A model generated the notes under the pieces. It ran no database searches. It was not told the DNA's origin and saw nothing but the letters and a program-made list of their open reading frames with translations. This document shows positions 3,731-61,021 of a DNA stretch of 61,021 nt, in pieces. Each line of letters begins with the position of its first letter. Position 1 is the stretch's first letter. The position numbers and the translations under genes were made by a program. The DNA is from Craspedostauros australis (taxonomy: Eukaryota), in the NCBI GenBank assembly GCA_030167865.1, contig JALAGF010000951.1:1-61021 (forward strand), in the 5' to 3' direction.

Positions 3731-4828
3731 TCAGTTCGCACCCTCCGGTGTCTCGCCACTCTTTCCATCGCTGTTGCTGGCATCGTCGGCATCGAGGACG
3801 GCCTTTGAAGACTTCGCTGCGGCACTATCCTTCGCCTTCTCCTCCTCCTTCAGTCGCAACAGCTTCCGCCCGAGGTGCTTCATGAAAACCTCGAAACACC
3901 TTTTTTCGGATTCCGGAAAAGTATCATCCACCATGTCAAATGCTGCCACGTTACGTTCGTACGTTGTGATGGTGCAATCAGCGCCGATGTCAAGCAGACT
4001 TTCAACCATCTCTCCATGCCCGCCCGCGGCAGCGCAATGAAGTGGAGTCCGCCCTCCCTCATCTTGCACATTGACATCGAGATCGGCAGAATTGCACAAC
4101 GCCCATAACACGTTGGGGTTGCCTCCAGTTGCGGCGTCGTGAAGAAGCGACTCGCCTTTGCTGTTCTTGACGGTGACATCCATTTTGCATGGCCCAATCA
4201 AGTAGTCCAGAATATCTACGTCATCGTCGCAGCGTCCACAAGCCTCATGCAAAGCGGTTTTCTCAGACTGGTCCTTCGCGTAGATGTTGGCATTACACGA
4301 CTCCACCAGATACTTCACCACGTCAAAGGTACCAGAGCCGCACGCCTCGTGCAGTGCGGTCGTTCCATAGCTGTCTGGAGCATTGACATCTACCTCGCAT
4401 ACCTCCACGAGATACTTGGCGATTTCCATATGTCCGCCCCCGCACGCGTAATGAAGAGGGCATACATCAAAATCGGTTGCACCAAGCTTGGTCAACATGG
4501 CAGGATTTGATCCACACGTCTCCACGAGATACTTCACAACATCCAGATGCCCACCGTTGCATGCCTCGTTGAGTGGAATGCGGCGTGGGTCATCGATGAT
4601 ATCATCGATGCAGGCCTCCGGATTCTCGTCTCTCCACCGCTTGACTGGGTCTAAGTCGCCACGGCGTGCGCCAAAGCACATATCGTCGCGAGAGGTAGAT
4701 GAAAGGCTCCTTCGATTTACCCTTGATTGCTGCCTGCCCAGGTTGGTGGCGATTGATGTTGGCCAAATCCGTTGGTTGTGGACAGAAGTTGTCACAAAGG
4801 CAGACGACAGCGCACGGACCCAAAGCAT
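3731..4828 (-). CDS. Ankyrin repeat protein, copy 1 (365 aa)
   Basis: About six repeats of the G-x-T-P/A-L-H-x-A type (PLHYACGGGH, GTTALHEAC, GRTPLHCAAAGGH). The N-terminus is Arg-rich and lacks acidic residues, resembling an organellar presequence. Confidence 0.9.
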   Translation of the reverse strand: MLWVRALSSAFVTTSVHNQRIWPTSIATNLGRQQSRVNRRSLSSTSRDDMCFGARRGDLDPVKRWRDENPEACIDDIIDDPRRIPLNEACNGGHLDVVKYLVETCGSNPAMLTKLGATDFDVCPLHYACGGGHMEIAKYLVEVCEVDVNAPDSYGTTALHEACGSGTFDVVKYLVESCNANIYAKDQSEKTALHEACGRCDDDVDILDYLIGPCKMDVTVKNSKGESLLHDAATGGNPNVLWALCNSADLDVNVQDEGGRTPLHCAAAGGHGEMVESLLDIGADCTITTYERNVAAFDMVDDTFPESEKRCFEVFMKHLGRKLLRLKEEEKAKDSAAAKSSKAVLDADDASNSDGKSGETPEGAN

Positions 4829-5537: not shown

Positions 5538-6635
5538 TCAGTTCGCATCCTCCGGCGTCCCGCCACTCTTTCCATCGCTGCTGCTCGCATCGTCGGCATC
5601 GAGGACGGCCTTTGAAGACTTCGCTGCGGCACTATCCTTTGCCTTCTCCTCCTCCTTCAGTCGCAACAGCTTCCGCCCGAGGTGCTTCGTGAAAGCCTTG
5701 TAGCACCAAGTTTCGGATTCCGGAAAAGTATCATCCACAACGTCGAATGCGGCCACGTTACGTTCGTATGATGTGATGGTGCAATCAGCGCCGCGGTCAA
5801 GCAGACTTTCAACCATCTCTCCATGCCCGCCCCAGGCAGCACAATGAAGTGGAGTCCACCCTTTCTCATCTTGCACATTGACATCGAGATCGGCAGAATT
5901 GCACAATGTCCAGAAGACGAAGGAGTTGCCTCCAGTCGCGGCGTCGTGAAGAAGCGACTCGCCTTTGCTGTTCTTGACGGTGACATCCATTTTGCATGGT
6001 CCAATCAAATATTCCAGAGTATCTACGTTATCGTTGTGGCGTCCACAAGCCTCATGCAAAGCGGTTTTCTCAGACTGGTCCACCGCGTGAATGTTGGCAT
6101 CGCACGACTCCACCAGATACTTCACCACATCAAAGGTACCAGACCTGCACGCCTTGTGTAGTGCGGTCGTTCCATAGCTGTCTGGAGCATTGACATCTAC
6201 CTCGCATACCTCCACGAGATACTTGACGATTTCCATATGTCCGCCCCCGCACGCGAAATGAAGAGGGCTTACACCACGCTTGGTTGTACCAAGCTTGGTC
6301 AACATGGCAGGATTTGATCCACACGTCTCCACGAGATACTTCACAACATCCAGATGCCCACCGTTGCATGCCTCGTTGAGTGGAATGCGGCGTGGGTCAT
6401 CGATGATATCATCGATGCAGGCCTCCGGATTCTTGTCTCTCCACCGCTTGACTTTGTCTAAGTCGCCACGGCGTGCGCCAAAGCACATATAGTCGTGGGC
6501 GGTATCTGATAGGCTCATTCGATTTATCCTTGATTGCTGCCTGCCCAGGTTGGTGGCGATTGATGTTGGCCAAATCCGTTGGTTGTGGACAGAAGTTGGC
6601 ACGAAGGCAGATGATACCGCACGGACCCAACGCAT
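5538..6635 (-). CDS. Ankyrin repeat protein, copy 2 (365 aa)
   Basis: Collinear paralogue of 3731-4828 with the same length and the same ankyrin motifs. Confidence 0.9.
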   Translation of the reverse strand: MRWVRAVSSAFVPTSVHNQRIWPTSIATNLGRQQSRINRMSLSDTAHDYMCFGARRGDLDKVKRWRDKNPEACIDDIIDDPRRIPLNEACNGGHLDVVKYLVETCGSNPAMLTKLGTTKRGVSPLHFACGGGHMEIVKYLVEVCEVDVNAPDSYGTTALHKACRSGTFDVVKYLVESCDANIHAVDQSEKTALHEACGRHNDNVDTLEYLIGPCKMDVTVKNSKGESLLHDAATGGNSFVFWTLCNSADLDVNVQDEKGWTPLHCAAWGGHGEMVESLLDRGADCTITSYERNVAAFDVVDDTFPESETWCYKAFTKHLGRKLLRLKEEEKAKDSAAAKSSKAVLDADDASSSDGKSGGTPEDAN

Positions 6636-41673: not shown

Positions 41674-44600
41674 TCAAATGGTATCGATTAGATGCAGTTT
41701 GGAATCCCTCGCACCAAACACGATCTTGTGGCATACCTCGGCTTCCACCGGGTTGGACCAGTTCTCGGCAGAGAATGCCCGATCCGAACGTAGGATCGTT
41801 CCGTCGACACTCGAAACGAACACCAGGTGCCCGCCTGTCGTGGCGACGAATACCTTGCCGTTTCTCAGCGACAGTGGCTTCGTGTAGATGGTGCTGTGGC
41901 ACGATACCGCCCACGAAATCGAACCATCTGGTTGAACGCAATGCAACGTGCCATCGTAGGAACCGACCAACACAGCAAGGCCATCGGCATGGCGTTCAGG
42001 TGCCGAGAGGGCGCAATCCGAGACTTTTGTCGTCATGATACACTCGCCGGTTTGGATGTCGATCCTATGCAGGCTGCCCCATGAATCCGCAGCAATCATG
42101 ATGCTGTTGTCCATCCCCAACATGTCGTTGTAGATGGGACCGACGGTGTATTGAAGGATTTCGGAGATCCGCAATTGTCCTTGGTTGTCCTCACAGCCGT
42201 CGGCGCTGTTGTCATCACGATTTTTCACAATCATGAGGCCACCGTCGTAGTCCGATACACCAAGGACGAGAACTTCAGCACCATTTCGCTGCCGTGCCAG
42301 AGGTGAGCATGATACGGGATGAGGGAGTTTAATGCAGCACTTGGTGTCCAAAGCGCCCGTCTCCACATCAATCTTCCTCAACTCATCGCCTGACACGACC
42401 CAGACTTCCTCTCCCTCTTCTCCTTGATCTCGTTCCCACAGTATCGGTGCTAGACGAATCTCTGGAATGCCATCCGACATTGTGCGTTGCCATTCGATGC
42501 GTTTCAGATCGGCTGAAAGTCGAGCAATCATTCCGCCGTTATCTGCAGTGATGGAATAACCACAGATCAAGATGGAATCACTGTTCGGAATGTGCGTCGG
42601 TCCAGCCTGCAATCGAAACTCCGGAAAGCAATGATGGGAAACCACTTTGGTGGTCGTGCAATCGATGAGGACGATCACGCCGCCTTGGCATACTGCATAC
42701 ACCATGCCATCACGAGTGCTGCCGTTTTCGCCCGTCGTCACAAGCGGCGTGGCATCGACGCAGGCCTGCATCTCGATCGTTGCATGCCGTTCGGATACCT
42801 TTTCACGTGGACTTGGCGTGTACCTCGCAATCGTTGCCAGTTCTTCTCGTTTTCTCCGCTTCGCCGGTTTGCTGCTGTCCATGGTTCCATTCCACATGGA
42901 CCGCAAATCGGAAAGACTGTCCATGGTCAAGATAGCCATGACCGTGATGGCCGTTGTGGGAGATTTGGACCTCAGCGAATAGAGCAATGCTATGGCAGTG
43001 GCGCTGTTGCCACCGAGATCTACGAACGATTGATTCATCGCAACGTGATCTGTTGGAATTTGCAAGATGATTGATACAATCTGCGCGAAAGATGAAGCCT
43101 CATCGATATCCCGTTGTGCGTCGCCCATCTGCTTGAGCTCTTGTCCCAACTCCGATCGAACGATCTGGCGAAGCTTGTCTCGATCAATCTTTGCGGCACC
43201 GCCGACCTTGCGTGGAATCGTGGAATGCCACACGACACGTCGTGGGATCCAGTTCCATGGTAGATTGTGTTGGCGTTGCATATTCTGACGCGAAAAGTCT
43301 TGAACGATGGAACGATCGCAACAGACAACGTACACCTCCTCATCGACAAGAACCGCGGCAGCCTCCACGGTCGCAGCCGTGGTGTGCTCCAAAAATGCCG
43401 CAAGAACTTGCTGCGGCGATGTCCAAACGCCGTTGCGCTTGATGACCTCATCGGTACGTCCTGTGATGTAGTACATCCCGTTGTGACAAAAGCCAACATC
43501 ACCCGTGCGAAACTCCGACATTGCTTGTACCGTGCCATCCATTCCAACGTACCCGTTGCACAAAGTCCCAGATACGATGACAAGCTCATCCGTCGCATCA
43601 TCGATGCGCAATCGATTGCCAGCGATAGGCTTGCCCACCGAGATGGTTTGGCGCATCATGGCTGTCGCTGCTGTCAACACCGCCGCACAACAATCGCCCG
43701 TGGACTCTGTCTGTCCGTAGAGGTTGATCAATTCGACAGTGGTGTCGCTGTTATAGTGTTGGAATCGTTGCCACACCTGCCGCGCACAGATCTCACCCGA
43801 TATCAAGATGCGTTGCAAGGCATGCTGCGTGCCGGTCGTCATGAATTGCGACAACTGGCTCGGCAGCATGAGGATTTGGGTGCACTGCGTTTGGCGAATG
43901 ATGTTGGCGATGTCGCCACCACCACCACCACCGTTGGAAGGAGGACTGGCCACGAGCAGAGATTCGGGTTGCAGGATCGCGTTCCATAGTTCGGTGATGC
44001 CATCAACGAAGGTGAGTTTGCTTCGTCGTGCGATTCTGGAGGATTGTGAGAATGTAGTTTGGAACCATGCGAGGCGTCGGATTGTGAATCGGTGCGACCC
44101 AACGACAGCCTTCGACGTGCTGGTCGTGCCAGATGTGAAGAGGATGTAGAGATCGTCGTTGGTGCTGTCATCATTGTTGTTGTTGTTGTTGTTGTTGAGT
44201 GAAAGAGGGGGAAGATCTTGCGGTACCGCGATCTGTTCTCGCATCGCGCCGGCACTGTCCAGATACAGGATGGAGTGCACATTGGCTTGCTGAAAGATGG
44301 ACAGGATGGGATCTTGATCATCCTTGCAGACCGTGATGGCGATGATGTTGCATGGCAGTGCATTGCCGTCGGATGCATGATCGCCGTACTTGCGCAACAA
44401 ATCCACGACGGGGTTCAACCGCCCCATGCTGTGCTGTTCCATGCACGAGGCGGGCACGAAGGGAATCTGTATCCTCATGCAGGCCAGGGTGGCCACAACT
44501 TCGGCAGCCGGCCATCCTTGACAGTCGACCAGCACGCAGCTCGGACGATACCGAAAGTGCATCTGGCGCGCCAGGGCTTTGGAATGTTCTTGCAGTTCGA

Positions 44601-44811
44601 AGTAGCAGTACGATCGCTGATGGTCGTCATTGGCGCTGGCATTGCCGCTATTGTGATCGCCACCAACGATTTCGATCGCATTCAAGTCGCCGATGGAGAA
44701 GCAGAGACGATCGAACTGCGTCACGATGGAATCAAGTTCATTGCCATCTTCGTCATTGCCGCTGCTGTTGCCCTTTCCGCCGCTATCGTCGGCATTGCTG
44801 TTATCGCTCAT
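41674..44811 (-). CDS. AASDH: AASDH/ACSF4-like NRPS-type enzyme: adenylation domain, carrier (PCP) domain, PQQ-like beta-propeller (about 1045 aa)
   Basis: A-domain motifs YILFTSGTTSTSK, NLYGQTE, FRTGDVG, GRTDEVIKRNG and KIDR. PCP motif FVDLGGNS. Propeller motifs CVDATPL, VGSYDGTLHC and FGARDSKLH. Confidence 0.88.
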   Translation of the reverse strand: MSDNSNADDSGGKGNSSGNDEDGNELDSIVTQFDRLCFSIGDLNAIEIVGGDHNSGNASANDDHQRSYCYFELQEHSKALARQMHFRYRPSCVLVDCQGWPAAEVVATLACMRIQIPFVPASCMEQHSMGRLNPVVDLLRKYGDHASDGNALPCNIIAITVCKDDQDPILSIFQQANVHSILYLDSAGAMREQIAVPQDLPPLSLNNNNNNNNDDSTNDDLYILFTSGTTSTSKAVVGSHRFTIRRLAWFQTTFSQSSRIARRSKLTFVDGITELWNAILQPESLLVASPPSNGGGGGGDIANIIRQTQCTQILMLPSQLSQFMTTGTQHALQRILISGEICARQVWQRFQHYNSDTTVELINLYGQTESTGDCCAAVLTAATAMMRQTISVGKPIAGNRLRIDDATDELVIVSGTLCNGYVGMDGTVQAMSEFRTGDVGFCHNGMYYITGRTDEVIKRNGVWTSPQQVLAAFLEHTTAATVEAAAVLVDEEVYVVCCDRSIVQDFSRQNMQRQHNLPWNWIPRRVVWHSTIPRKVGGAAKIDRDKLRQIVRSELGQELKQMGDAQRDIDEASSFAQIVSIILQIPTDHVAMNQSFVDLGGNSATAIALLYSLRSKSPTTAITVMAILTMDSLSDLRSMWNGTMDSSKPAKRRKREELATIARYTPSPREKVSERHATIEMQACVDATPLVTTGENGSTRDGMVYAVCQGGVIVLIDCTTTKVVSHHCFPEFRLQAGPTHIPNSDSILICGYSITADNGGMIARLSADLKRIEWQRTMSDGIPEIRLAPILWERDQGEEGEEVWVVSGDELRKIDVETGALDTKCCIKLPHPVSCSPLARQRNGAEVLVLGVSDYDGGLMIVKNRDDNSADGCEDNQGQLRISEILQYTVGPIYNDMLGMDNSIMIAADSWGSLHRIDIQTGECIMTTKVSDCALSAPERHADGLAVLVGSYDGTLHCVQPDGSISWAVSCHSTIYTKPLSLRNGKVFVATTGGHLVFVSSVDGTILRSDRAFSAENWSNPVEAEVCHKIVFGARDSKLHLIDTI

Positions 44812-45403
44812 GTTGGACGACACGAGAATGTTCCATCAATGCCGGATCCATCTCGGCATCTCTCTCCTTGCGTGTGGACTCCTTGTTGATCCTGGCTGTT
44901 TGATGGGTCTGTCTTGGCATGGACAGATGGAAGGGTGGATCCAGAACGGTTGGACGAATCAAGGAAGGTATCTTTTGGGATGATTGACTCACTCGACTCG
45001 AATTTGGGTGGAGCGAAAACGGAAAGGAAGAACAGAAACAAGAAGCGTGAAACGTCGCGCAAAACACTGTTGTGATGCGTGTCAGTACTCACATCGCATT
45101 GCTGTGATGGATGGATGGAAGGATGGATGGATGGGTCAGTGCCAAACACATCAACCCTGACTATTCCACTGCACGACTACTCATTTTAACTCAAGCCGAT
45201 TGTTGGCTGGCTGATTGACTGATTGACTGAAAGGCAAGGCGAAGAGTTCATCGGTGAAAGATACGCGATCATCGTTGACGTCATTGCTCGATTCCCATCA
45301 GACTCCCTCTCGTCTGAAGCCAACTCTACGACTACATCATATAACAGCATCTGCCAACGGATCGTCGTACTCCACACATACGTATCATACACACACCTCC
45401 ATC

Positions 45404-56151: not shown

Positions 56152-57315
56152 ATGCAGCGCATCGAATTCATCGCAGCAGCCGTCCTGGCCTTGATGGCCA
56201 CACCATCCGGCAAAGCCTTCCATCTGCCATCCCCGGTCATTCGCAACCGAAGCATCGCGAAGCATGGCGACGATGTGCGCGCCTTCGCAATGGAAGCGCC
56301 GCACAACCATGAGACGCCCGCTCCGGAGCCGCAGGGAGCAGGCTGGTCCATCGAGGAGGAGTGGGCCCTGCTGGATCAACTGCCCAAGTTCACCGTCGGA
56401 GAAGGCGGTAACGCTCGCACCTTCTGGGCGCAGCTGCAGCTGGCAACCCCGCTCCTGTCCAATCGCGACGAGGCCGAACTGCTGCAGCATTGTGCGGCAG
56501 CTCGAAGCGGCGAGTCCACGCAGACCATGGTGTTCGGACCATCGCCGCCGATGCTGAATCACTGGACGGTCGCGGCCGATGGGCGCATCTCCGGACAAAC
56601 GGAAGAGGGCAGGTCGGTGTGGATGACGACGCACGTGATCGGGCGGTTGCAGGGTGACCCTCTCGTGGATTCTTCGTCCGTGGGTTCCGGCGCAGTTTGC
56701 CAGATGATGCCTGGTGGATACATCGAGGCCGTCGGCGGTCGCGTGTACGAGCTGGGCCATCCGCTCAAGGTCAGCATCCAATCCAACATGAATGGGGATG
56801 CTTCGCCGCAGGATACGGCAAGGCGCACTGCGCTCGCCCATGGTTCCAATTTCTGGGGCAATGCGCACAATTCGGCAGATGGAGTGAACGATGGTTTTGG
56901 CACCAGCCGCAACAAGACGCCTTGGTGGTTGCCCGCAACGACCGCCACGATCGCATCGATGGTATCCGTCTCCGTCCTATCTGCCTGCATCGGATACGGC
57001 GCGGGCTTGTCGATCCTATCGGATGGCAGCCACACCGAATCTTCCATGACGCAAGTCTCGGCAGCGCACATCACACCAGTCTCCATAACGACGGCGACCT
57101 CCATGTCGGCATCGAGCATCAGGACAACATCAGACAACAAAATCGAACCATCCATCTCCGAACAGCGCGCACGCACGGAGGCTCGTGTGCTGCGTGAGGA
57201 ACGCGTGATGCAAGTCATCAGCGGGAAATTGGAGCAGGACATGTCGCAGCTTGTCAAGTTGCGGCAGCTCGAGCATCAGCAATTCCTGCAAATGCAGTGG
57301 AGCGACGAAATATGA
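56152..57315 (+). CDS. Hypothetical protein (387 aa), probably plastid-targeted, with a C-terminal TM and coiled coil
   Basis: Signal peptide ends GKA|FHLP. Contains WSIEEEWALLDQLPKFTVG...TFW.QL, GGYIEAVGGRVYELG, a hydrophobic segment and a heptad-like tail. Confidence 0.8.
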   Translation: MQRIEFIAAAVLALMATPSGKAFHLPSPVIRNRSIAKHGDDVRAFAMEAPHNHETPAPEPQGAGWSIEEEWALLDQLPKFTVGEGGNARTFWAQLQLATPLLSNRDEAELLQHCAAARSGESTQTMVFGPSPPMLNHWTVAADGRISGQTEEGRSVWMTTHVIGRLQGDPLVDSSSVGSGAVCQMMPGGYIEAVGGRVYELGHPLKVSIQSNMNGDASPQDTARRTALAHGSNFWGNAHNSADGVNDGFGTSRNKTPWWLPATTATIASMVSVSVLSACIGYGAGLSILSDGSHTESSMTQVSAAHITPVSITTATSMSASSIRTTSDNKIEPSISEQRARTEARVLREERVMQVISGKLEQDMSQLVKLRQLEHQQFLQMQWSDEI

Positions 57316-57865
57316 ATGCAACTTGGATTTCGGCGTGCAGGAGCAGCGTGCAGACAGAGGTACGCAAAAGATGGGTAGGTACATCGACCATCGTGTTAGA
57401 TTACATAATATTATATAATACATGAACACTTTAGAATAGGAAGGATACTGTATACAGCGGGAACATTGTATTGGGGACCCTCCAGAAAAGTATGGTGCAC
57501 ATGCTCCGTCATGCAAAGACGACACAGTAGATTGCCAGCGTTATCAGAATTCGATGTTGGTCGTGGATACGGGATGATGGGTGGTCTGTCATTCGTCAGT
57601 CTCAGAGAATGATGTTGAACCACCAACGCATCAACACATCACTTCTTTTCCGAATTTGTTTCTGCCAGAAGCTGAGAATACAAGGCACATCATTGTTGTG
57701 GTCGCAGGTCATACCCTTGCAGAGGACATCATGGATCGAGGTCTGCCTACTTGGACATCACTCGGCCATCGTCGGACTTGCGCAATTGATCCAGGCAAAC
57801 AGAGTGGCAACCATCTCGCAGCAGACGCCTTCGGGAGCCAATCCCAGCGTGCCAATAGACTACCG

Positions 57866-59764
57866 ATGACCCCGACAATCAGACCAGCGCTGCGACCAGA
57901 CTTGAGGCGGCGAACACGCACGTCTCGACCCATTGCGCTGGTTCCTGTCGCGGCTGCGTTGCTGCTTTGCGTTCATGCAAGCAGCAGGGTGTCGGCCTTC
58001 ATGGTCCACTCGCAGTCCTGCCGCGCACAGCCACGATATGCGCAGGCCCATGATGACTCCATCGATGCCGTGGCGCAGCAATTCCAAGACATGTCGGTGG
58101 CAGATATCCAGCAGACGCTCGTTCAGAAAGGTCTGCAATTCGCCGACGACCCATGCGATCAGCCGTTGCAGAAGGTTCCGGGCTGCGTCGCCGACGTCCG
58201 CGTGCGCGCGATCGCCACGGGGCAGACCATCGCAGTCACAGGCACGGCCGATGCTTTGATCAGCCGCGGATTGTTGGCCGTCGTGGCGCGGTGGATGGAG
58301 ATGACCACGTTGTCGCAGATACTTGCGCAGGATGCTGCCACGTTGGCGCAGCAGTTGGGAATCTCCGCGGCGCTGTCGCCGGGACGCAACGATGGCATTG
58401 CGAGTATGGTGCGCGTTCTGCAGGATCAGATACGGCAAGACGCGGTGGCGCCGTTGCATGATGCCGCGAATCCAGCCGAAAGGAGCGAGGCAACGAGCGA
58501 CAGGCCCAAGGTGGCGCTGCTGTTATCCGGCGGTGTCGATTCCTCCGTCGCGTTGCGGTTGCTGCTACGAGACGGATACGACGTCACGCCGTTCTATCTC
58601 AAGATTTGGTTGGAGGACGAGTTGGCGCATCTCGGTGAATGTCCTTGGGAGGAGGATGTCAAGGTGTGTCACGCCGTGTGCGGGCAGGCTGGCATCGGGC
58701 TCGTCACGCTGTCGCTGCAGGCCGAGTACAAGAAGCGCGTCATGGACCACACCATCCAAGAGGCAGCGCAGGGGCGCACGCCCAATCCCGATATCCTGTG
58801 CAATTCGCGTGTCAAGTTTGGTTGCTTCCTCGAAACGCTGACGCAGAATCCGGACGTCTACGGCTCCTTCGATTACATCGCCAGCGGCCACTATGCGCAG
58901 CTGCAGCACGATGCGACGACGGGCACGCAGCAGCTGTTCCGTGCGCCGGATCCGGTCAAGGATCAATCCTACTTCCTGTGCACGTTGCGGCAGGACCAGC
59001 TCGCCAAAGTCAAATTCCCCATAGGCCATCTCGAGAAATCCAAGGTCCGCGAACTCGCTGACGAATTCGAACTGCCCAACCGCCACAGACCGGACTCGCA
59101 AGGACTCTGCTTTCTGGGCAAGCTCAAATTCAGCGACTTCCTCGAGGCCAATTTGGGAGTCCAGCCTGGATTGATCCTTGATGCCTTCACCAACGAGACC
59201 ATCGGACAGCACAACGGCGTCTGGTATCACACCGTCGGACAGCGCAAGGGGATTGGCAATTCGTTGCATCCCTTGGCAACATCACGCGGTCCATGGTACG
59301 TCGTCGCCAAGGACCCTAAGCACAACATCGTCTACGCCAGCAATCAGTACGACGAAGAGGCATTCACGCAAGCGCGGTCCAAGTTCCAGGTCGAAGACGT
59401 GCATTGGATCGACGGTGGTCCACCGCAACAGCATCGGATACATCCAGCCGAGAATGACACGAGCAGTGGCGATGCTGACAACTTCATAACGAGTACAACC
59501 GTTGAGCCATCAACGTATCGATTCGCCATGAAGATTCGCCATGGCCCCCGCTTGGTCAGTGGGTCCGTGCAGTGGGATGCATTTCAAGATACCGCAACGA
59601 TCGAACTGGATCACAAGGACGGTGGCTTGGCACCGGGACAGTACGTCGTCTTTTACGATCCCGAAACAGCGCAGTGTTTCGGCAGCGGCATCATCAGCGA
59701 ACGCCATTGGGCGCGGTTCTTGCAAACATTCCAGCAGCGCGACGAAGAAGCGGTTCCTCAGTGA
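57866..59764 (+). CDS. mnmA: SufE-MnmA fusion: sulfur-acceptor domain plus tRNA-specific 2-thiouridylase, probably organelle-targeted (about 632 aa; start may be 57731)
   Basis: SufE motifs KVPGCVADV, GTADALISRGLLAV and LGISAALSPGRNDG. MnmA motifs LSGGVDSSV, TPNPDILCN, SGHYA, KDQSYFL, DSQGLCF, TVGQRKG, KIRH and APGQYVVFY. Single uninterrupted ORF. Confidence 0.93.
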   Translation: MTPTIRPALRPDLRRRTRTSRPIALVPVAAALLLCVHASSRVSAFMVHSQSCRAQPRYAQAHDDSIDAVAQQFQDMSVADIQQTLVQKGLQFADDPCDQPLQKVPGCVADVRVRAIATGQTIAVTGTADALISRGLLAVVARWMEMTTLSQILAQDAATLAQQLGISAALSPGRNDGIASMVRVLQDQIRQDAVAPLHDAANPAERSEATSDRPKVALLLSGGVDSSVALRLLLRDGYDVTPFYLKIWLEDELAHLGECPWEEDVKVCHAVCGQAGIGLVTLSLQAEYKKRVMDHTIQEAAQGRTPNPDILCNSRVKFGCFLETLTQNPDVYGSFDYIASGHYAQLQHDATTGTQQLFRAPDPVKDQSYFLCTLRQDQLAKVKFPIGHLEKSKVRELADEFELPNRHRPDSQGLCFLGKLKFSDFLEANLGVQPGLILDAFTNETIGQHNGVWYHTVGQRKGIGNSLHPLATSRGPWYVVAKDPKHNIVYASNQYDEEAFTQARSKFQVEDVHWIDGGPPQQHRIHPAENDTSSGDADNFITSTTVEPSTYRFAMKIRHGPRLVSGSVQWDAFQDTATIELDHKDGGLAPGQYVVFYDPETAQCFGSGIISERHWARFLQTFQQRDEEAVPQ

Positions 59765-60214: not shown

Positions 60215-61021
60215 TCATGGATTGATCCTCTTGACACGCAGCTTGGTTCCGATGTACTTGAATGTCATGAAGTACGAAAGCTCGCCTTCCTCCACAACCT
60301 CGAACTCGTACTTTGACAGCACCTTCGGCATCACGGAGTACATCTCCGCCTTGGCCAAAGTCTGGCCGACGCAGTTGCGGTTGCCATGAGCGAACGTCAT
60401 CATGCTCTTCAGCATGTCGTTCGTCGCGGTCTCCCAGCGCTTCGGGCTGAACTCGTCAGGGTTTTCGAACACGTGCTCACTGCGATGCGGCAGCATGTGC
60501 GGGAGGAACACGTTGGAGCCGCTTGGAAGCTCCACCTTCGTGTTGCTGGTCTCATCGAGGAGGACGAAGTCGCGGTTGAGCTTCCGGCCCGATCCCAACG
60601 CGATGACGGGGGCAATTCGGTTGGACTCCGTGATGACGTGTCTCATGCTCTCCTTGGCCGCCTCAGCATCATCGCCGAGCAACGATTTCTGCAGGTGCGT
60701 CATCGTCTCGGGATGCTTGGCCAACAACGTCACCGTGCTGGCCATGGTGTAACCCGTGGTATCGAAACCGCCAATGAGGAAGAGGACGACGTCGGAGATC
60801 TTCTCGAGCTCAGTGCGGTAGTGCGGATTGCTGTCGATGAGCTTGATGGCGGTATTGTTGGTGGACTTGTTGGGGTTGTTCTGGTAGGCTCGCAGGATCT
60901 TCCTGCCAAATTCGGTGACGGCGTCTCCACATCGGCGGGCCTCGCGCACGGAGGGGATGAATGCTCCAAAGATCTTGCGCAGTGGGCTGAGGGACTGAGT
61001 GTAGGCGTACTCGCGGTACGC
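60215..61021 (-). CDS. Cytochrome P450, C-terminal part (5' end outside the window)
   Basis: I-helix GGFDTT, K-helix ESNR (ExxR), PERF-like FSPKRW and heme motif FAHGNRNCVG. Frame is open to the window edge. Confidence 0.95.
   Translation of the reverse strand, partial: AYREYAYTQSLSPLRKIFGAFIPSVREARRCGDAVTEFGRKILRAYQNNPNKSTNNTAIKLIDSNPHYRTELEKISDVVLFLIGGFDTTGYTMASTVTLLAKHPETMTHLQKSLLGDDAEAAKESMRHVITESNRIAPVIALGSGRKLNRDFVLLDETSNTKVELPSGSNVFLPHMLPHRSEHVFENPDEFSPKRWETATNDMLKSMMTFAHGNRNCVGQTLAKAEMYSVMPKVLSKYEFEVVEEGELSYFMTFKYIGTKLRVKRINP

What the first reader, a model, noticed from the sequence alone, without database searches (positions are those of the whole stretch)
57866..59764. SufE-MnmA fusion: candidate built-in sulfur relay for plastid tRNA 2-thiolation
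Seen: one intronless ORF joins three parts. These are a hydrophobic signal ending VSA|FMV (bipartite plastid-presequence-like), a SufE-like domain (about 58060-58435, keeping the persulfide Cys in VPGCV at 58184-58186 and the ADA.I.RG and LSP.R..G motifs), and a complete MnmA from about 58508 with SGGVDS, DxxC (PDILC) and the second catalytic Cys (QGLCF). Established: SufE accepts persulfide from SufS for Fe-S assembly. E. coli MnmA is supplied through IscS-TusA-TusBCD-TusE, while other organisms use a more direct desulfurase-to-MnmA route. Plastids rely on the SUF system. Inference: sulfur passes from SufS to the fused SufE Cys, then to the MnmA Cys and U34, linking SUF to s2U synthesis without Tus proteins. 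I do not know of a characterised example of this fusion, but I cannot confirm that it is novel.
Basis: partly seen in the sequence, partly recalled or inferred. Interest (0 to 1): 0.85.

Follow-up and report, generated by a model that had tools for sequence, protein, structure and literature searches.

The report
Plastid tRNA thiolase with built-in SufE
This diatom-type nuclear gene encodes a probably plastid-targeted tRNA 2-thiouridine synthase (MnmA) with a sulfur-acceptor SufE domain fused in front of it; the fusion is real and widespread in red-type algae, has already been noted in malaria-type parasites, and has never been tested.

Summary
Bases 57866-59764 (+) are one open frame of 632 codons. 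It has a signal-like N-terminus (VSA|F), a SufE domain (Pfam 58.6 bits, cut-off 27) and a complete MnmA (TIGR00420 335 bits). A model of the SufE part has pLDDT 88.7 and superposes on SufE/CsdE crystal structures (TM 0.72-0.79). Its Cys107 aligns with E. coli SufE Cys51.

The fusion is not an assembly accident. All 14 first hits share it, as do 49 of the 75 representatives scanned. Of 121 fused relatives, 113 keep the Cys, 8 have gaps and none has a substitution.

Named carriers are red algae, haptophytes, brown algae and a diatom. All 21 named green-lineage orthologues lack it, and so do the 80 best bacterial loci.

It is not new as an idea. A SufE domain in Toxoplasma apicoplast MnmA (2022) and a SufE-like domain in Plasmodium MnmA (2023) are in print. 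The 2023 paper proposes the same SufS-to-SufE-domain-to-MnmA relay, which remains untested.

Verdict: a new member of a known, uncharacterised architecture. What I did not find in print is its spread across the red plastid lineage. Interest is moderate.

The parts
57866..59764 (+). Whole coding sequence: 632 codons plus stop, no stop or frame break; SufE-MnmA fusion protein (P0001)
57866..57997 (+). Signal-peptide-like leader, residues 1-44: Arg-rich start, hydrophobic core 25-36, V-S-A before the predicted cut, Phe45 next (57998-58000). This is the pattern of diatom bipartite plastid leaders.
   Evidence: Sequence read; hydrophobicity. By eye, 10 of 15 diatom-type relatives show the same core plus small-residue|Phe. 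No targeting predictor was run.
58058..58447 (+). SufE-type sulfur-acceptor domain, about residues 65-194
   Evidence: Pfam PF02657 58.6 bits against cut-off 27. AlphaFold2 model pLDDT 88.7, pTM 0.83. Foldseek best matches are SufE 3g0m and 1mzg, CsdE 5eep and 1wlo, TM 0.72-0.79.
58184..58186 (+). Codon of Cys107, the predicted persulfide-carrying Cys of the SufE domain (VPGCV)
   Evidence: Aligned with chain position 51 of E. coli SufE 1mzg. Invariant in 14 of 14 rows. Cys in 113 of 121 fused relatives, gaps in 8, no substitution.
58448..58507 (+). Short linker between the SufE and MnmA domains, residues 195-214; much longer and variable in relatives
   Evidence: alignment columns about 455-525; low pLDDT at the model's C-terminal end
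58508..59122 (+). MnmA catalytic (HUP / PP-loop ATPase) domain, residues 215-419
   Evidence: PF03054 220.2 bits; TIGR00420 335.3 bits against cut-off 236.95; 2DER E 4.4e-67
58526..58543 (+). PP-loop SGGVDS, residues 221-226 (ATP binding, adenylation of U34)
   Evidence: Invariant; Ser221 column is Ser in 121 of 121
58790..58801 (+). D309-I-L-C312: Asp and first catalytic Cys of a D-type MnmA
   Evidence: Aligned to PNPDILCN of E. coli MnmA 2DER. D and C present in 117 of 121 relatives, the other 4 are gaps. The E. coli numbers D99/C102 are recalled, not from a call.
59108..59110 (+). Codon of Cys415 (QGLCF), second catalytic Cys
   Evidence: Aligned to DSTGICF of 2DER. Cys in 112 of 121 relatives, 9 gaps. 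The E. coli number C199 is recalled.
59135..59341 (+). MnmA PRC-barrel middle domain, residues 424-492
   Evidence: PF20259 68.7 bits
59426..59509 (+). Insertion of about 28 residues peculiar to this protein, between the two barrels (residues about 521-548)
   Evidence: Absent from the 13 other rows. In frame, and no convincing GT...AG borders by eye.
59510..59695 (+). MnmA C-terminal beta-barrel, residues 549-610
   Evidence: PF20258 49.3 bits

Best explanation
A nuclear gene for the plastid's tRNA 2-thiouridine(34) synthase (D-type MnmA), carrying its own SufE-type sulfur acceptor.

Proposed mechanism:
1. After import, the SufE domain docks on the plastid class-II cysteine desulfurase SufS.
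2. It takes the persulfide sulfur on Cys107.
3. It hands the sulfur to the MnmA active site (Asp309, Cys312, Cys415).
4. There U34 of plastid tRNA-Lys, -Glu and -Gln, adenylated through the SGGVDS PP-loop, is thiolated.

The fusion thus replaces the Tus relay of E. coli or the dedicated desulfurase of Bacillus, and ties s2U synthesis to the SUF sulfur supply.

Shown here: the domains, the fold, the residues and their conservation. Inferred: targeting, docking on SufS, and every sulfur-transfer step.
For: Domains:
- Both families are matched above Pfam cut-offs, and MnmA is matched above NCBIfam equivalog cut-offs.
- The SufE fold is confirmed by a confident model and PDB matches.

Residues:
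- Cys107 aligns with SufE position 51.
- PDB entry 8vbs is titled 'SufS bound to SufE C51A', which marks position 51 as the functional Cys.
- The Cys is never replaced in 121 fused relatives: 113 Cys, 8 gaps.
- The MnmA PP-loop, Asp and both Cys are kept.

The fusion is conserved:
- 14 of 14 first hits.
- 49 of the 75 representatives scanned.
- 18 of 19 hits of a SufE-domain profile among longer proteins.
- 42 of 120 hits of a wider profile.
- These include transcriptome-derived records (EukProt, MMETSP and TSA names), so single transcripts exist in relatives.

Targeting:
- The leader has a hydrophobic core plus VSA|F.
- The apicomplexan counterparts are reported as apicoplast-localised (PMC11702754, passage).

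Literature:
- P. falciparum sufE deletion leaves the apicoplast intact while sufS and mnmA deletions do not. This fits a SufE-independent sulfur route to MnmA.
- The authors themselves suggest the fused SufE-like domain as that route (PMC10219651, passages).
- Precedent for a SufE domain serving the enzyme fused to it: plant SUFE3, a SufE-NadA fusion (PMC8003979, passage).
Against: - No member of this architecture has been tested for sulfur transfer. The searches found none, and the 2025 follow-up PMC11702754 has 0 occurrences of 'SufE'.
- B. subtilis MnmA without any SufE domain replaced PfMnmA, in 1 of 4 attempts, and the authors favour direct SufS-to-MnmA transfer (PMC10219651).
- Green-lineage orthologues (21 named) and the 80 best bacterial relatives work without the domain, so it is not mechanistically required by MnmA.
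- The SufE part is divergent. It scores 40.5 bits against the NCBIfam SufE equivalog cut-off of 160 and is only 16-23% identical to solved SufE/CsdE.
- Plastid targeting was not run through a predictor.
- SufS and a stand-alone SufE of this organism were not seen, because only this window is available.
Confidence: 0.6

Rival explanations
1. The SufE domain feeds sulfur not to a Cys persulfide on MnmA but to an iron-sulfur cluster. It would build or repair a labile [4Fe-4S] cluster held by Asp309, Cys312 and Cys415, as proposed for the SufE domain of plant SUFE3 and the cluster of its NadA domain. The cluster would then carry the sulfur to U34.
For: - A 2026 review states that E. coli D-type MnmA can bind an Fe-S cluster through 2 Cys and 1 Asp, that the cluster is very labile, and cites work finding thiolation cluster-dependent (PMC13066941, passages).
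- The same Asp/Cys/Cys triad is conserved here.
Against: - The role of the cluster in MnmA is still debated. The review calls the clusters hard to study, and a 'critical review' is cited.
- SufE supplies sulfur only, so iron and scaffold steps would still be needed.
- Nothing in the sequence separates this rival from the persulfide route.
Confidence: 0.22
2. The SufE domain does not pass sulfur on. It acts only as a tether or activator that brings SufS next to MnmA, with SufS giving sulfur directly to MnmA. Alternatively it acts as a redox-sensitive switch on the enzyme.
For: - SufE proteins stimulate SufS activity, about 17-fold for the P. falciparum pair (PMC10219651, passage).
- The authors favour direct SufS-to-MnmA transfer.
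- A CsdE structure is titled 'inhibited form of the redox-sensitive SufE-like sulfur acceptor' (5nq6).
Against: The acceptor Cys is kept without a single substitution in 113 of 113 alignable fused relatives. A pure tether would not need that, although activation of SufS by SufE is itself coupled to persulfide uptake (established knowledge, recalled).
Confidence: 0.1
3. The fusion is an artefact: two neighbouring genes (sufE and mnmA) read through, or a mis-assembly.
For: - Only genomic DNA of this organism was seen, with no transcript data.
- Some relatives look like merged models: proteins of 1142-1154 residues with SET + SufE + MnmA.
Against: - The frame is uninterrupted, with only 20 residues between the domains.
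- The same order of domains recurs in 121 relatives from red algae, haptophytes, brown algae and diatoms, including transcript-derived records.
- No stand-alone start or targeting signal precedes the MnmA part.
Confidence: 0.02
4. The protein is the mitochondrial enzyme (Mtu1-like) or is dually targeted, not a plastid enzyme.
For: - MnmA homologues also serve mitochondria (yeast Mtu1 is named in PMC10219651).
- No predictor was run here.
- The best bacterial matches in a pattern-limited scan were not cyanobacteria.
Against: - The leader is a signal peptide followed by Phe, not a mitochondrial presequence.
- SufE partners SufS of the SUF system, which sits in plastids (PMC8003979).
- The apicomplexan counterparts are in the apicoplast.
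- The protein groups with plastid-bearing lineages only.
Confidence: 0.05

Closest known systems
Apicoplast MnmA of Apicomplexa (P. falciparum PfMnmA; T. gondii TGGT1_309110)
   Same: - One polypeptide with a leader, a SufE or SufE-like domain, then MnmA.
- Red-derived plastid.
- Same proposed SufS-to-SufE-domain-to-MnmA route (PMC9420914; PMC10219651).
- Apicomplexan-like fused representatives P0119, P0133 and P0139 keep the Cys.
- An AU test does not reject one clade with the window's protein (p 0.778).
   Different: - The apicomplexan proteins are much longer. PfMnmA has a 421-residue extension (total about 1083) and TgMnmA about 1600, with large inserts.
- The P. falciparum SufE-like domain was found only by structural analysis, whereas here it passes Pfam outright.
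- Here the linker is 20 residues and the organism is photosynthetic-type.
- In a free tree they sit on a separate long branch.
Plant and green-algal SUFE3 (SufE-NadA, quinolinate synthase)
   Same: An N-terminal SufE domain fused to the plastid enzyme it is thought to serve, drawing on SufS/NFS2 (PMC8003979).
   Different: - The C-terminal enzyme is NadA, not MnmA.
- The proposed role is Fe-S cluster formation.
- It is found in the green lineage and a few heterokonts, whereas SufE-MnmA was found in named red-lineage organisms and in none of the 21 named green ones.
Bacillus subtilis YrvO-MnmA
   Same: An abbreviated route without Tus proteins: a desulfurase serves MnmA directly (PMC10219651; PMC13066941).
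   Different: There the specificity lies in a dedicated desulfurase encoded next to mnmA, with no SufE-type carrier. Here the carrier is fused and the desulfurase is presumably the general SufS.
E. coli IscS-TusA-TusBCD-TusE-MnmA relay
   Same: - Same end enzyme: 2DER aligns at E 4.4e-67, with the same PP-loop and Asp/Cys/Cys.
- Persulfide is passed protein to protein.
   Different: - Five separate carriers of unrelated folds and a class-I desulfurase.
- No Tus-like gene was seen in the window. The rest of the genome was not available.
Stand-alone SufE / CsdE (E. coli, Salmonella; plant SUFE1)
   Same: Same fold (TM 0.72-0.79), the Cys at the position of Cys51, and Pfam PF02657.
   Different: - Only 16-23% identity.
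- Below the NCBIfam SufE and CsdE equivalog cut-offs.
- The N-terminal helices are not matched by the Pfam profile (match starts at profile position 27).
- Fused to an enzyme instead of serving SufBCD.

Membership tests
MnmA, tRNA 2-thiouridine(34) synthase (TIGR00420 / NF001138 / PF03054) | Profile score above the curated equivalog cut-off | tested here: met
   TIGR00420 335.3 against 236.95; NF001138 323.3 against 284; PF03054 220.2 against 20.6
MnmA, tRNA 2-thiouridine(34) synthase (TIGR00420 / NF001138 / PF03054) | PP-loop SGGxDS for ATP binding | tested here: met
   SGGVDS at 221-226, invariant; aligned to the same motif of 2DER
MnmA, tRNA 2-thiouridine(34) synthase (TIGR00420 / NF001138 / PF03054) | Asp-x-x-Cys and second catalytic Cys (D-type active site) | tested here: met
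   D309, C312 and C415 align with PNPDILCN and DSTGICF of 2DER. Conserved in relatives.
MnmA, tRNA 2-thiouridine(34) synthase (TIGR00420 / NF001138 / PF03054) | Three-domain build: catalytic domain, PRC barrel, C-terminal barrel | tested here: met
   PF03054, PF20259 and PF20258 are all above cut-off, in order
MnmA, tRNA 2-thiouridine(34) synthase (TIGR00420 / NF001138 / PF03054) | Forms s2U34 on tRNA-Lys, -Glu and -Gln | not testable with these tools
   Needs enzyme assay or tRNA mass spectrometry
SufE/CsdE sulfur acceptors (PF02657) | Pfam profile above the gathering score | tested here: met
   58.6 bits against 27, residues 93-187, profile positions 27-120 of 121
SufE/CsdE sulfur acceptors (PF02657) | Equivalog-level match to bacterial SufE or CsdE (NCBIfam) | tested here: not met
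   NF006792 40.5 against 160; TIGR03391 33.9 against 136.4. It is a SufE-family domain, not an equivalog of the stand-alone proteins.
SufE/CsdE sulfur acceptors (PF02657) | SufE fold | tested here: met
   Model pLDDT 88.7. The twelve listed Foldseek matches through rank 16 are chains of SufE, CsdE (incl. ygdK) or 1wlo, TM 0.65-0.84; the IscU and SufU matches from rank 19 are much weaker.
SufE/CsdE sulfur acceptors (PF02657) | Persulfide-accepting Cys at the position of E. coli SufE Cys51 | tested here: met
   Aligned to chain position 51 of 1mzg. 113 Cys, 8 gaps and 0 substitutions in 121 relatives.
SufE/CsdE sulfur acceptors (PF02657) | Binds and stimulates a class-II desulfurase (SufS) and accepts its persulfide | not testable with these tools
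   The SufS of this organism is not in the window; needs biochemistry
SufE-MnmA fusion of red-derived plastids (as noted for apicoplast MnmA) | SufE-type domain N-terminal to MnmA in one polypeptide | tested here: met
   the same order in relatives
SufE-MnmA fusion of red-derived plastids (as noted for apicoplast MnmA) | Bipartite plastid leader (signal peptide, then transit-peptide-like stretch) | tested here: inconclusive
   Hydrophobic core and VSA|F read by eye, plus a hydrophobicity script. No ASAFind, HECTAR or SignalP on hand.
SufE-MnmA fusion of red-derived plastids (as noted for apicoplast MnmA) | Common descent with the apicomplexan and red-algal fused proteins | tested here: inconclusive
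   - FastTree: 59 of 62 fused rows fall in one group (support 92), and the 3 apicomplexan-like rows lie elsewhere on a long branch.
- IQ-TREE quick: unresolved.
- AU test of one clade: not rejected, p 0.778, and the held tree is 8.3 lnL better.
Plant SUFE3 (SufE-NadA) | C-terminal quinolinate synthase (NadA) domain | tested here: not met
   No NadA family among the Pfam hits; the C-terminal part is MnmA. This is an analogue, not a member.

The most novel reading that the evidence does not exclude
The SufE-MnmA fusion was invented once, in the red-algal line after it split from the green line. It was carried with the red plastid into ochrophytes, haptophytes and apicomplexans.

On this reading it is a marker of red-plastid ancestry. 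It is also the dedicated, sole sulfur carrier for plastid wobble-uridine thiolation in all these groups. That would explain why the stand-alone SufE is dispensable for apicoplast upkeep. It would also make it the red-lineage mirror image of the green-lineage SufE-NadA fusion.
Probability: 0.4. Interest if true: 0.6.

Novelty: new member of a known kind. Interest (0 to 1): 0.45.

Why it matters
How MnmA gets its sulfur differs between E. coli (Tus relay) and Bacillus (dedicated desulfurase), and is unsettled for plastids. A natural fusion of a SUF-type acceptor to MnmA is a 'Rosetta stone' link between the plastid Fe-S machinery and tRNA wobble thiolation.

The apicomplexan versions are huge and hard to handle. 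This diatom-type protein is compact: 632 residues, a 20-residue linker and a SufE domain that Pfam recognises. It is therefore a better subject for biochemistry and structure, and transformable diatoms allow a clean Cys107 test.

The red-versus-green distribution found here also adds a fourth class of SufE-domain protein. A 2021 survey of algal SUF components did not list it: SUFE1 is reported in all microalgae analysed, SUFE3 mainly in the green lineage and SUFE2 in none, and the text has 0 mentions of tRNA.

It does not overturn anything. The idea is already in print as a suggestion.

Tried and rejected
- Domain docking. A complex prediction of the SufE domain (residues 55-200) against the MnmA part (205-632) returned 'no answer': score 0.00, mark 0.34, the alignments were not used and the controls were not folded. 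It says nothing for or against docking.
Names came instead from two profile searches.
- Bacterial origin and bacterial fusions.
  - All 80 kept loci match the query only from residue 178 or later.
  - None has a SufE-like ORF of 80 or more residues within 3 kb (0 of 80).
  - The pattern filter means bacterial or cyanobacterial fusions elsewhere are not excluded, and the non-cyanobacterial look of the best hits cannot be interpreted.
- Intron check. The 28-residue insertion at 59426-59509 shows no convincing borders by eye. This stays unresolved without RNA data.
- Alternative upstream start. An ATG about 57731 lies in the frame open from 57581. It would bury the hydrophobic core 70 residues in, so I rejected it as less likely; this is not proven.
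- Free trees. They did not resolve whether all fused proteins form one clade.
- Literature. Searches for the fusion in diatoms or red algae found nothing relevant by title or listing.
- Not searched: metagenome and viral contig collections (closed).
- Not seen: figure supplements of PMC10219651, including the SufE-like domain figure.
Full report
**What is there.** The frame holding the finding is open from 57581 to the stop at 59764. From the ATG at 57866 it encodes 632 residues (P0001). Pfam finds four domains, in order and all above their curated cut-offs:
- SufE PF02657, residues 93-187, 58.6 bits against 27.
- tRNA_Me_trans PF03054, residues 215-419, 220.2 bits.
- The PRC barrel PF20259, residues 424-492.
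- The C-terminal barrel PF20258, residues 549-610.

NCBIfam names the C-terminal 420 residues MnmA at equivalog level: TIGR00420 335.3 bits against 236.95, and NF001138 323.3 against 284. The SufE part stays far below the SufE and CsdE equivalog cut-offs, at 40.5 against 160 and 33.9 against 136.4. Against PDB sequences the best matches are E. coli MnmA 2DER (E 4.4e-67) and, for the N-terminal part, E. coli SufE 1mzg (E 2.8e-05).

**The SufE part is a real SufE domain.** I modelled residues 55-200 with an alignment of 14 fused relatives. The model is confident: mean pLDDT 88.7, pTM 0.83. Foldseek against the PDB returns as its twelve listed matches through rank 16 chains of SufE (3g0m, 1mzg, 8vbs), CsdE (5eep, 5nq6, 4lw4, 5ft8, 1ni7) and the Thermus protein 1wlo. 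The TM-scores range from 0.65 to 0.84 over about 130-136 columns. The distantly related IscU and SufU come far behind, at E of 0.03 or more. In the phmmer alignment to 1mzg, the Cys of VPGCV (Cys107, codon 58184-58186) stands opposite chain position 51. PDB entry 8vbs is titled 'SufS bound to SufE C51A', which marks that position as the functional Cys.

**The MnmA part is complete.** The alignment to 2DER pairs SGGVDS with the E. coli PP-loop, PNPDILCN with the identical E. coli stretch, and QGLCF with TGICF. By my recollection of E. coli numbering these are Asp99, Cys102 and Cys199. The numbers come from no call. This makes it a 'D-type' MnmA in the terms of a 2026 review (PMC13066941, passages).

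**Leader and gene model.** Residues 1-44 have an Arg-rich start, a hydrophobic core (LVPVAAALLLCV, mean Kyte-Doolittle 2.84) and V-S-A before Phe45.
- Among the window protein and 14 diatom-type relatives, 10 of 15 show an N-terminal hydrophobic core (12-residue mean of 1.88 or more within the first 36 residues).
- In those 10 the core is followed, by my eye, by a small residue and then Phe. The other five lack such a start and look truncated.
- This is the pattern of diatom bipartite plastid leaders (recalled knowledge). No targeting predictor was available, so plastid location is inferred.
- An in-frame ATG about 135 bases upstream would bury the core and is less likely.
- A 28-residue insertion (59426-59509) is peculiar to this protein and shows no convincing intron borders.
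- The other large ORFs of the window encode ordinary nuclear genes: ankyrin repeats, an HSF-type domain, the ribonucleotide reductase small chain, a P450 and others. None is a SUF or Tus gene.

**The fusion is conserved, not accidental.**
- A search with the SufE region alone, among proteins of similar total length, gave 14 hits. All 14 carry PF02657 and PF03054; one is named, from the diatom Seminavis robusta.
- An exhaustive search of 50%-identity representatives gave 14,406 hits at E of 0.001 or less. I scanned 75 of the 150 listed (P0016-P0090) with Pfam: 49 of 75 have SufE plus MnmA and 26 have MnmA only.
- A profile of eight diverse SufE parts, searched among longer proteins, gave 19 hits. 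Of these, 18 are SufE plus MnmA and one is SufE only.
- A wider profile listed 120 proteins, 42 of them fused.
- Across all 278 proteins held, 121 match both of my HMMs. At the persulfide-Cys column 113 have Cys, 8 have gaps and none has another residue. The MnmA Asp and first Cys are present in 117 (4 gaps) and the second Cys in 112 (9 gaps).

**Who has it.** Most hits are unnamed, so this picture rests on about 30 names.
- Named fused proteins from red algae (lineages checked for four species): Porphyridium purpureum, Cyanidium caldarium, Purpureofilum apyrenoidigerum, Rhodosorus marinus, Gracilaria domingensis and Agarophyton chilense.
- From haptophytes: Prymnesium parvum and Prymnesium sp.
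- From brown algae: two Ectocarpus records.
- From diatoms: Seminavis robusta.
- Named proteins without the domain number 22.
  - 21 are Viridiplantae: Cymbomonas, Mesostigma, Chlorella, Volvox, Chlamydomonas, Bryopsis, a liverwort, a fern, Nymphaea, Dioscorea and others.
  - One is the haptophyte Chrysotila carterae, 452 residues. It sits inside the fused group in the trees and is probably a truncated model.
All 80 match only from residue 178 or later, and none has a SufE-like ORF within 3 kb (0 of 80). The scan used two peptide patterns only, so it does not exclude fused bacterial forms.

**Trees, built on the MnmA part only.**
- FastTree. I used 211 rows after dropping 45 fragments that did not span the domain. 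59 of 62 fused rows fall in one group of 65 (support 92). That group is sister (97) to a 25-row group without SufE that holds the green-lineage representatives. Three apicomplexan-like fused rows sit apart on a long branch.
- IQ-TREE quick. I picked 58 rows: 39 eukaryotic, 14 bacterial loci and 5 short representatives. The 13 green rows form one clade (100). The fused rows fall into three unresolved groups.
- AU test. Holding all 26 red-type rows together gave a tree 8.3 log-likelihood units better than the free search, p-AU 0.778.
- Reading. One origin is therefore not rejected, but it is not shown. I named the group after seeing the first tree.

**What is in print.** These are passages found by term search, not whole papers.
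- Yang et al. [quoted passage not shown]
- Swift et al. 2023 (PMC10219651) report several things.
  - P. falciparum MnmA has a 421-residue extension with 'a SufE-like structural domain'. [quoted passage not shown]
  - sufE deletion spares the apicoplast, whereas sufS deletion does not.
  - B. subtilis MnmA alone replaced PfMnmA in one of four attempts.
  - The comparison covers five apicomplexans. The text has no occurrence of diatom, red alga, Chromera or Vitrella.
  - I did not see its figure supplements.
- The 2025 follow-up on MnmE and MnmG has no occurrence of 'SufE' (PMC11702754).
- A 2021 survey of SUF components in 25 microalgae reports SUFE1 in all microalgae analysed, SUFE3 mainly in the green lineage and SUFE2 in none. 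[quoted passage not shown]
- Searches for the fusion in diatoms, red algae or chloroplasts found nothing further. These cover open-access papers and bioRxiv only.

**How it most likely works.** I commit to a dedicated sulfur acceptor. The imported protein uses its SufE domain to dock on plastid SufS and takes the persulfide on Cys107. It delivers the sulfur to the MnmA site, where the PP-loop has adenylated U34 (confidence 0.6).
- Shown: domains, fold, residues, conservation and distribution.
- Inferred: targeting, SufS docking and each transfer step.
- Main rival (0.22): the sulfur goes into a labile [4Fe-4S] cluster on Asp309, Cys312 and Cys415. This follows the SUFE3-NadA precedent and recent claims for E. 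coli MnmA. Sequence cannot separate the two.
- Tether or activator-only role (0.1): this fits the authors' preference for direct SufS-to-MnmA transfer, but fits poorly with a Cys that is never replaced.
- Artefact (0.02) and mitochondrial location (0.05): unlikely for the reasons given under the rivals.

**Verdict.** This gene is a new, compact, diatom-type member of that architecture. The fusion runs through red algae and red-plastid lineages and is absent from named green-lineage orthologues. The acceptor Cys is under strict conservation.

Interest is moderate (0.45). It is not surprising to a specialist who knows the 2022-2023 papers, but it offers a tractable system for an open question.

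Noticed in passing
window 56152-57315 (+): The upstream neighbour is a 387-residue ORF with no Pfam family. Its N-terminus (hydrophobic stretch, then GKA|FHL) looks like the same kind of plastid leader as the SufE-MnmA gene. It may be another plastid-targeted protein of unknown function.
   Followed up: no
window 3734-4828 (-) and 5541-6635 (-): Two ORFs of identical length (365 residues), both full of ankyrin repeats with near-identical Pfam profiles. This is an apparent tandem duplication.
   Followed up: partly
window 57581-57865 (+): The SufE-MnmA frame stays open for 285 bases upstream of the chosen ATG and holds another in-frame ATG (about 57731). Starting there would place the signal-like core about 70 residues in. 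The true start needs transcript data.
   Followed up: partly
window 59426-59509 (+): An insertion of about 28 residues between the two MnmA barrels that none of 13 aligned relatives has. It is in frame and I saw no clear intron borders.
   Followed up: partly
proteins P0018, P0174, P0175, P0176 (related sequences, not the window): Four relatives of 1142-1154 residues carry a SET domain in front of SufE plus MnmA. This is either a three-part protein or neighbouring genes merged by gene prediction.
   Followed up: no
loci L001-L080: The bacterial MnmA genes most like the window's MnmA part in the pattern-limited scan are from Spirochaetota, candidate-phyla bacteria, Babeliales, Verrucomicrobiota and Oligoflexales, not cyanobacteria. 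Because only two peptide patterns were used, this may be a search bias rather than a clue to origin.
   Followed up: partly
protein P0156 (related sequence): An apicomplexan-like relative with a 239-residue N-terminal extension gave no hit to my SufE HMMs, although its three nearest relatives do. This fits the published remark that the Plasmodium domain is seen only structurally.
   Followed up: no
window 41677-44823 (-) and 60218-61021 (-): A 1049-residue ORF with an AMP-binding domain plus an ACSF4-type beta-propeller, and a cytochrome P450 that runs off the window's end. These are ordinary nuclear genes, unrelated to the finding.
   Followed up: no
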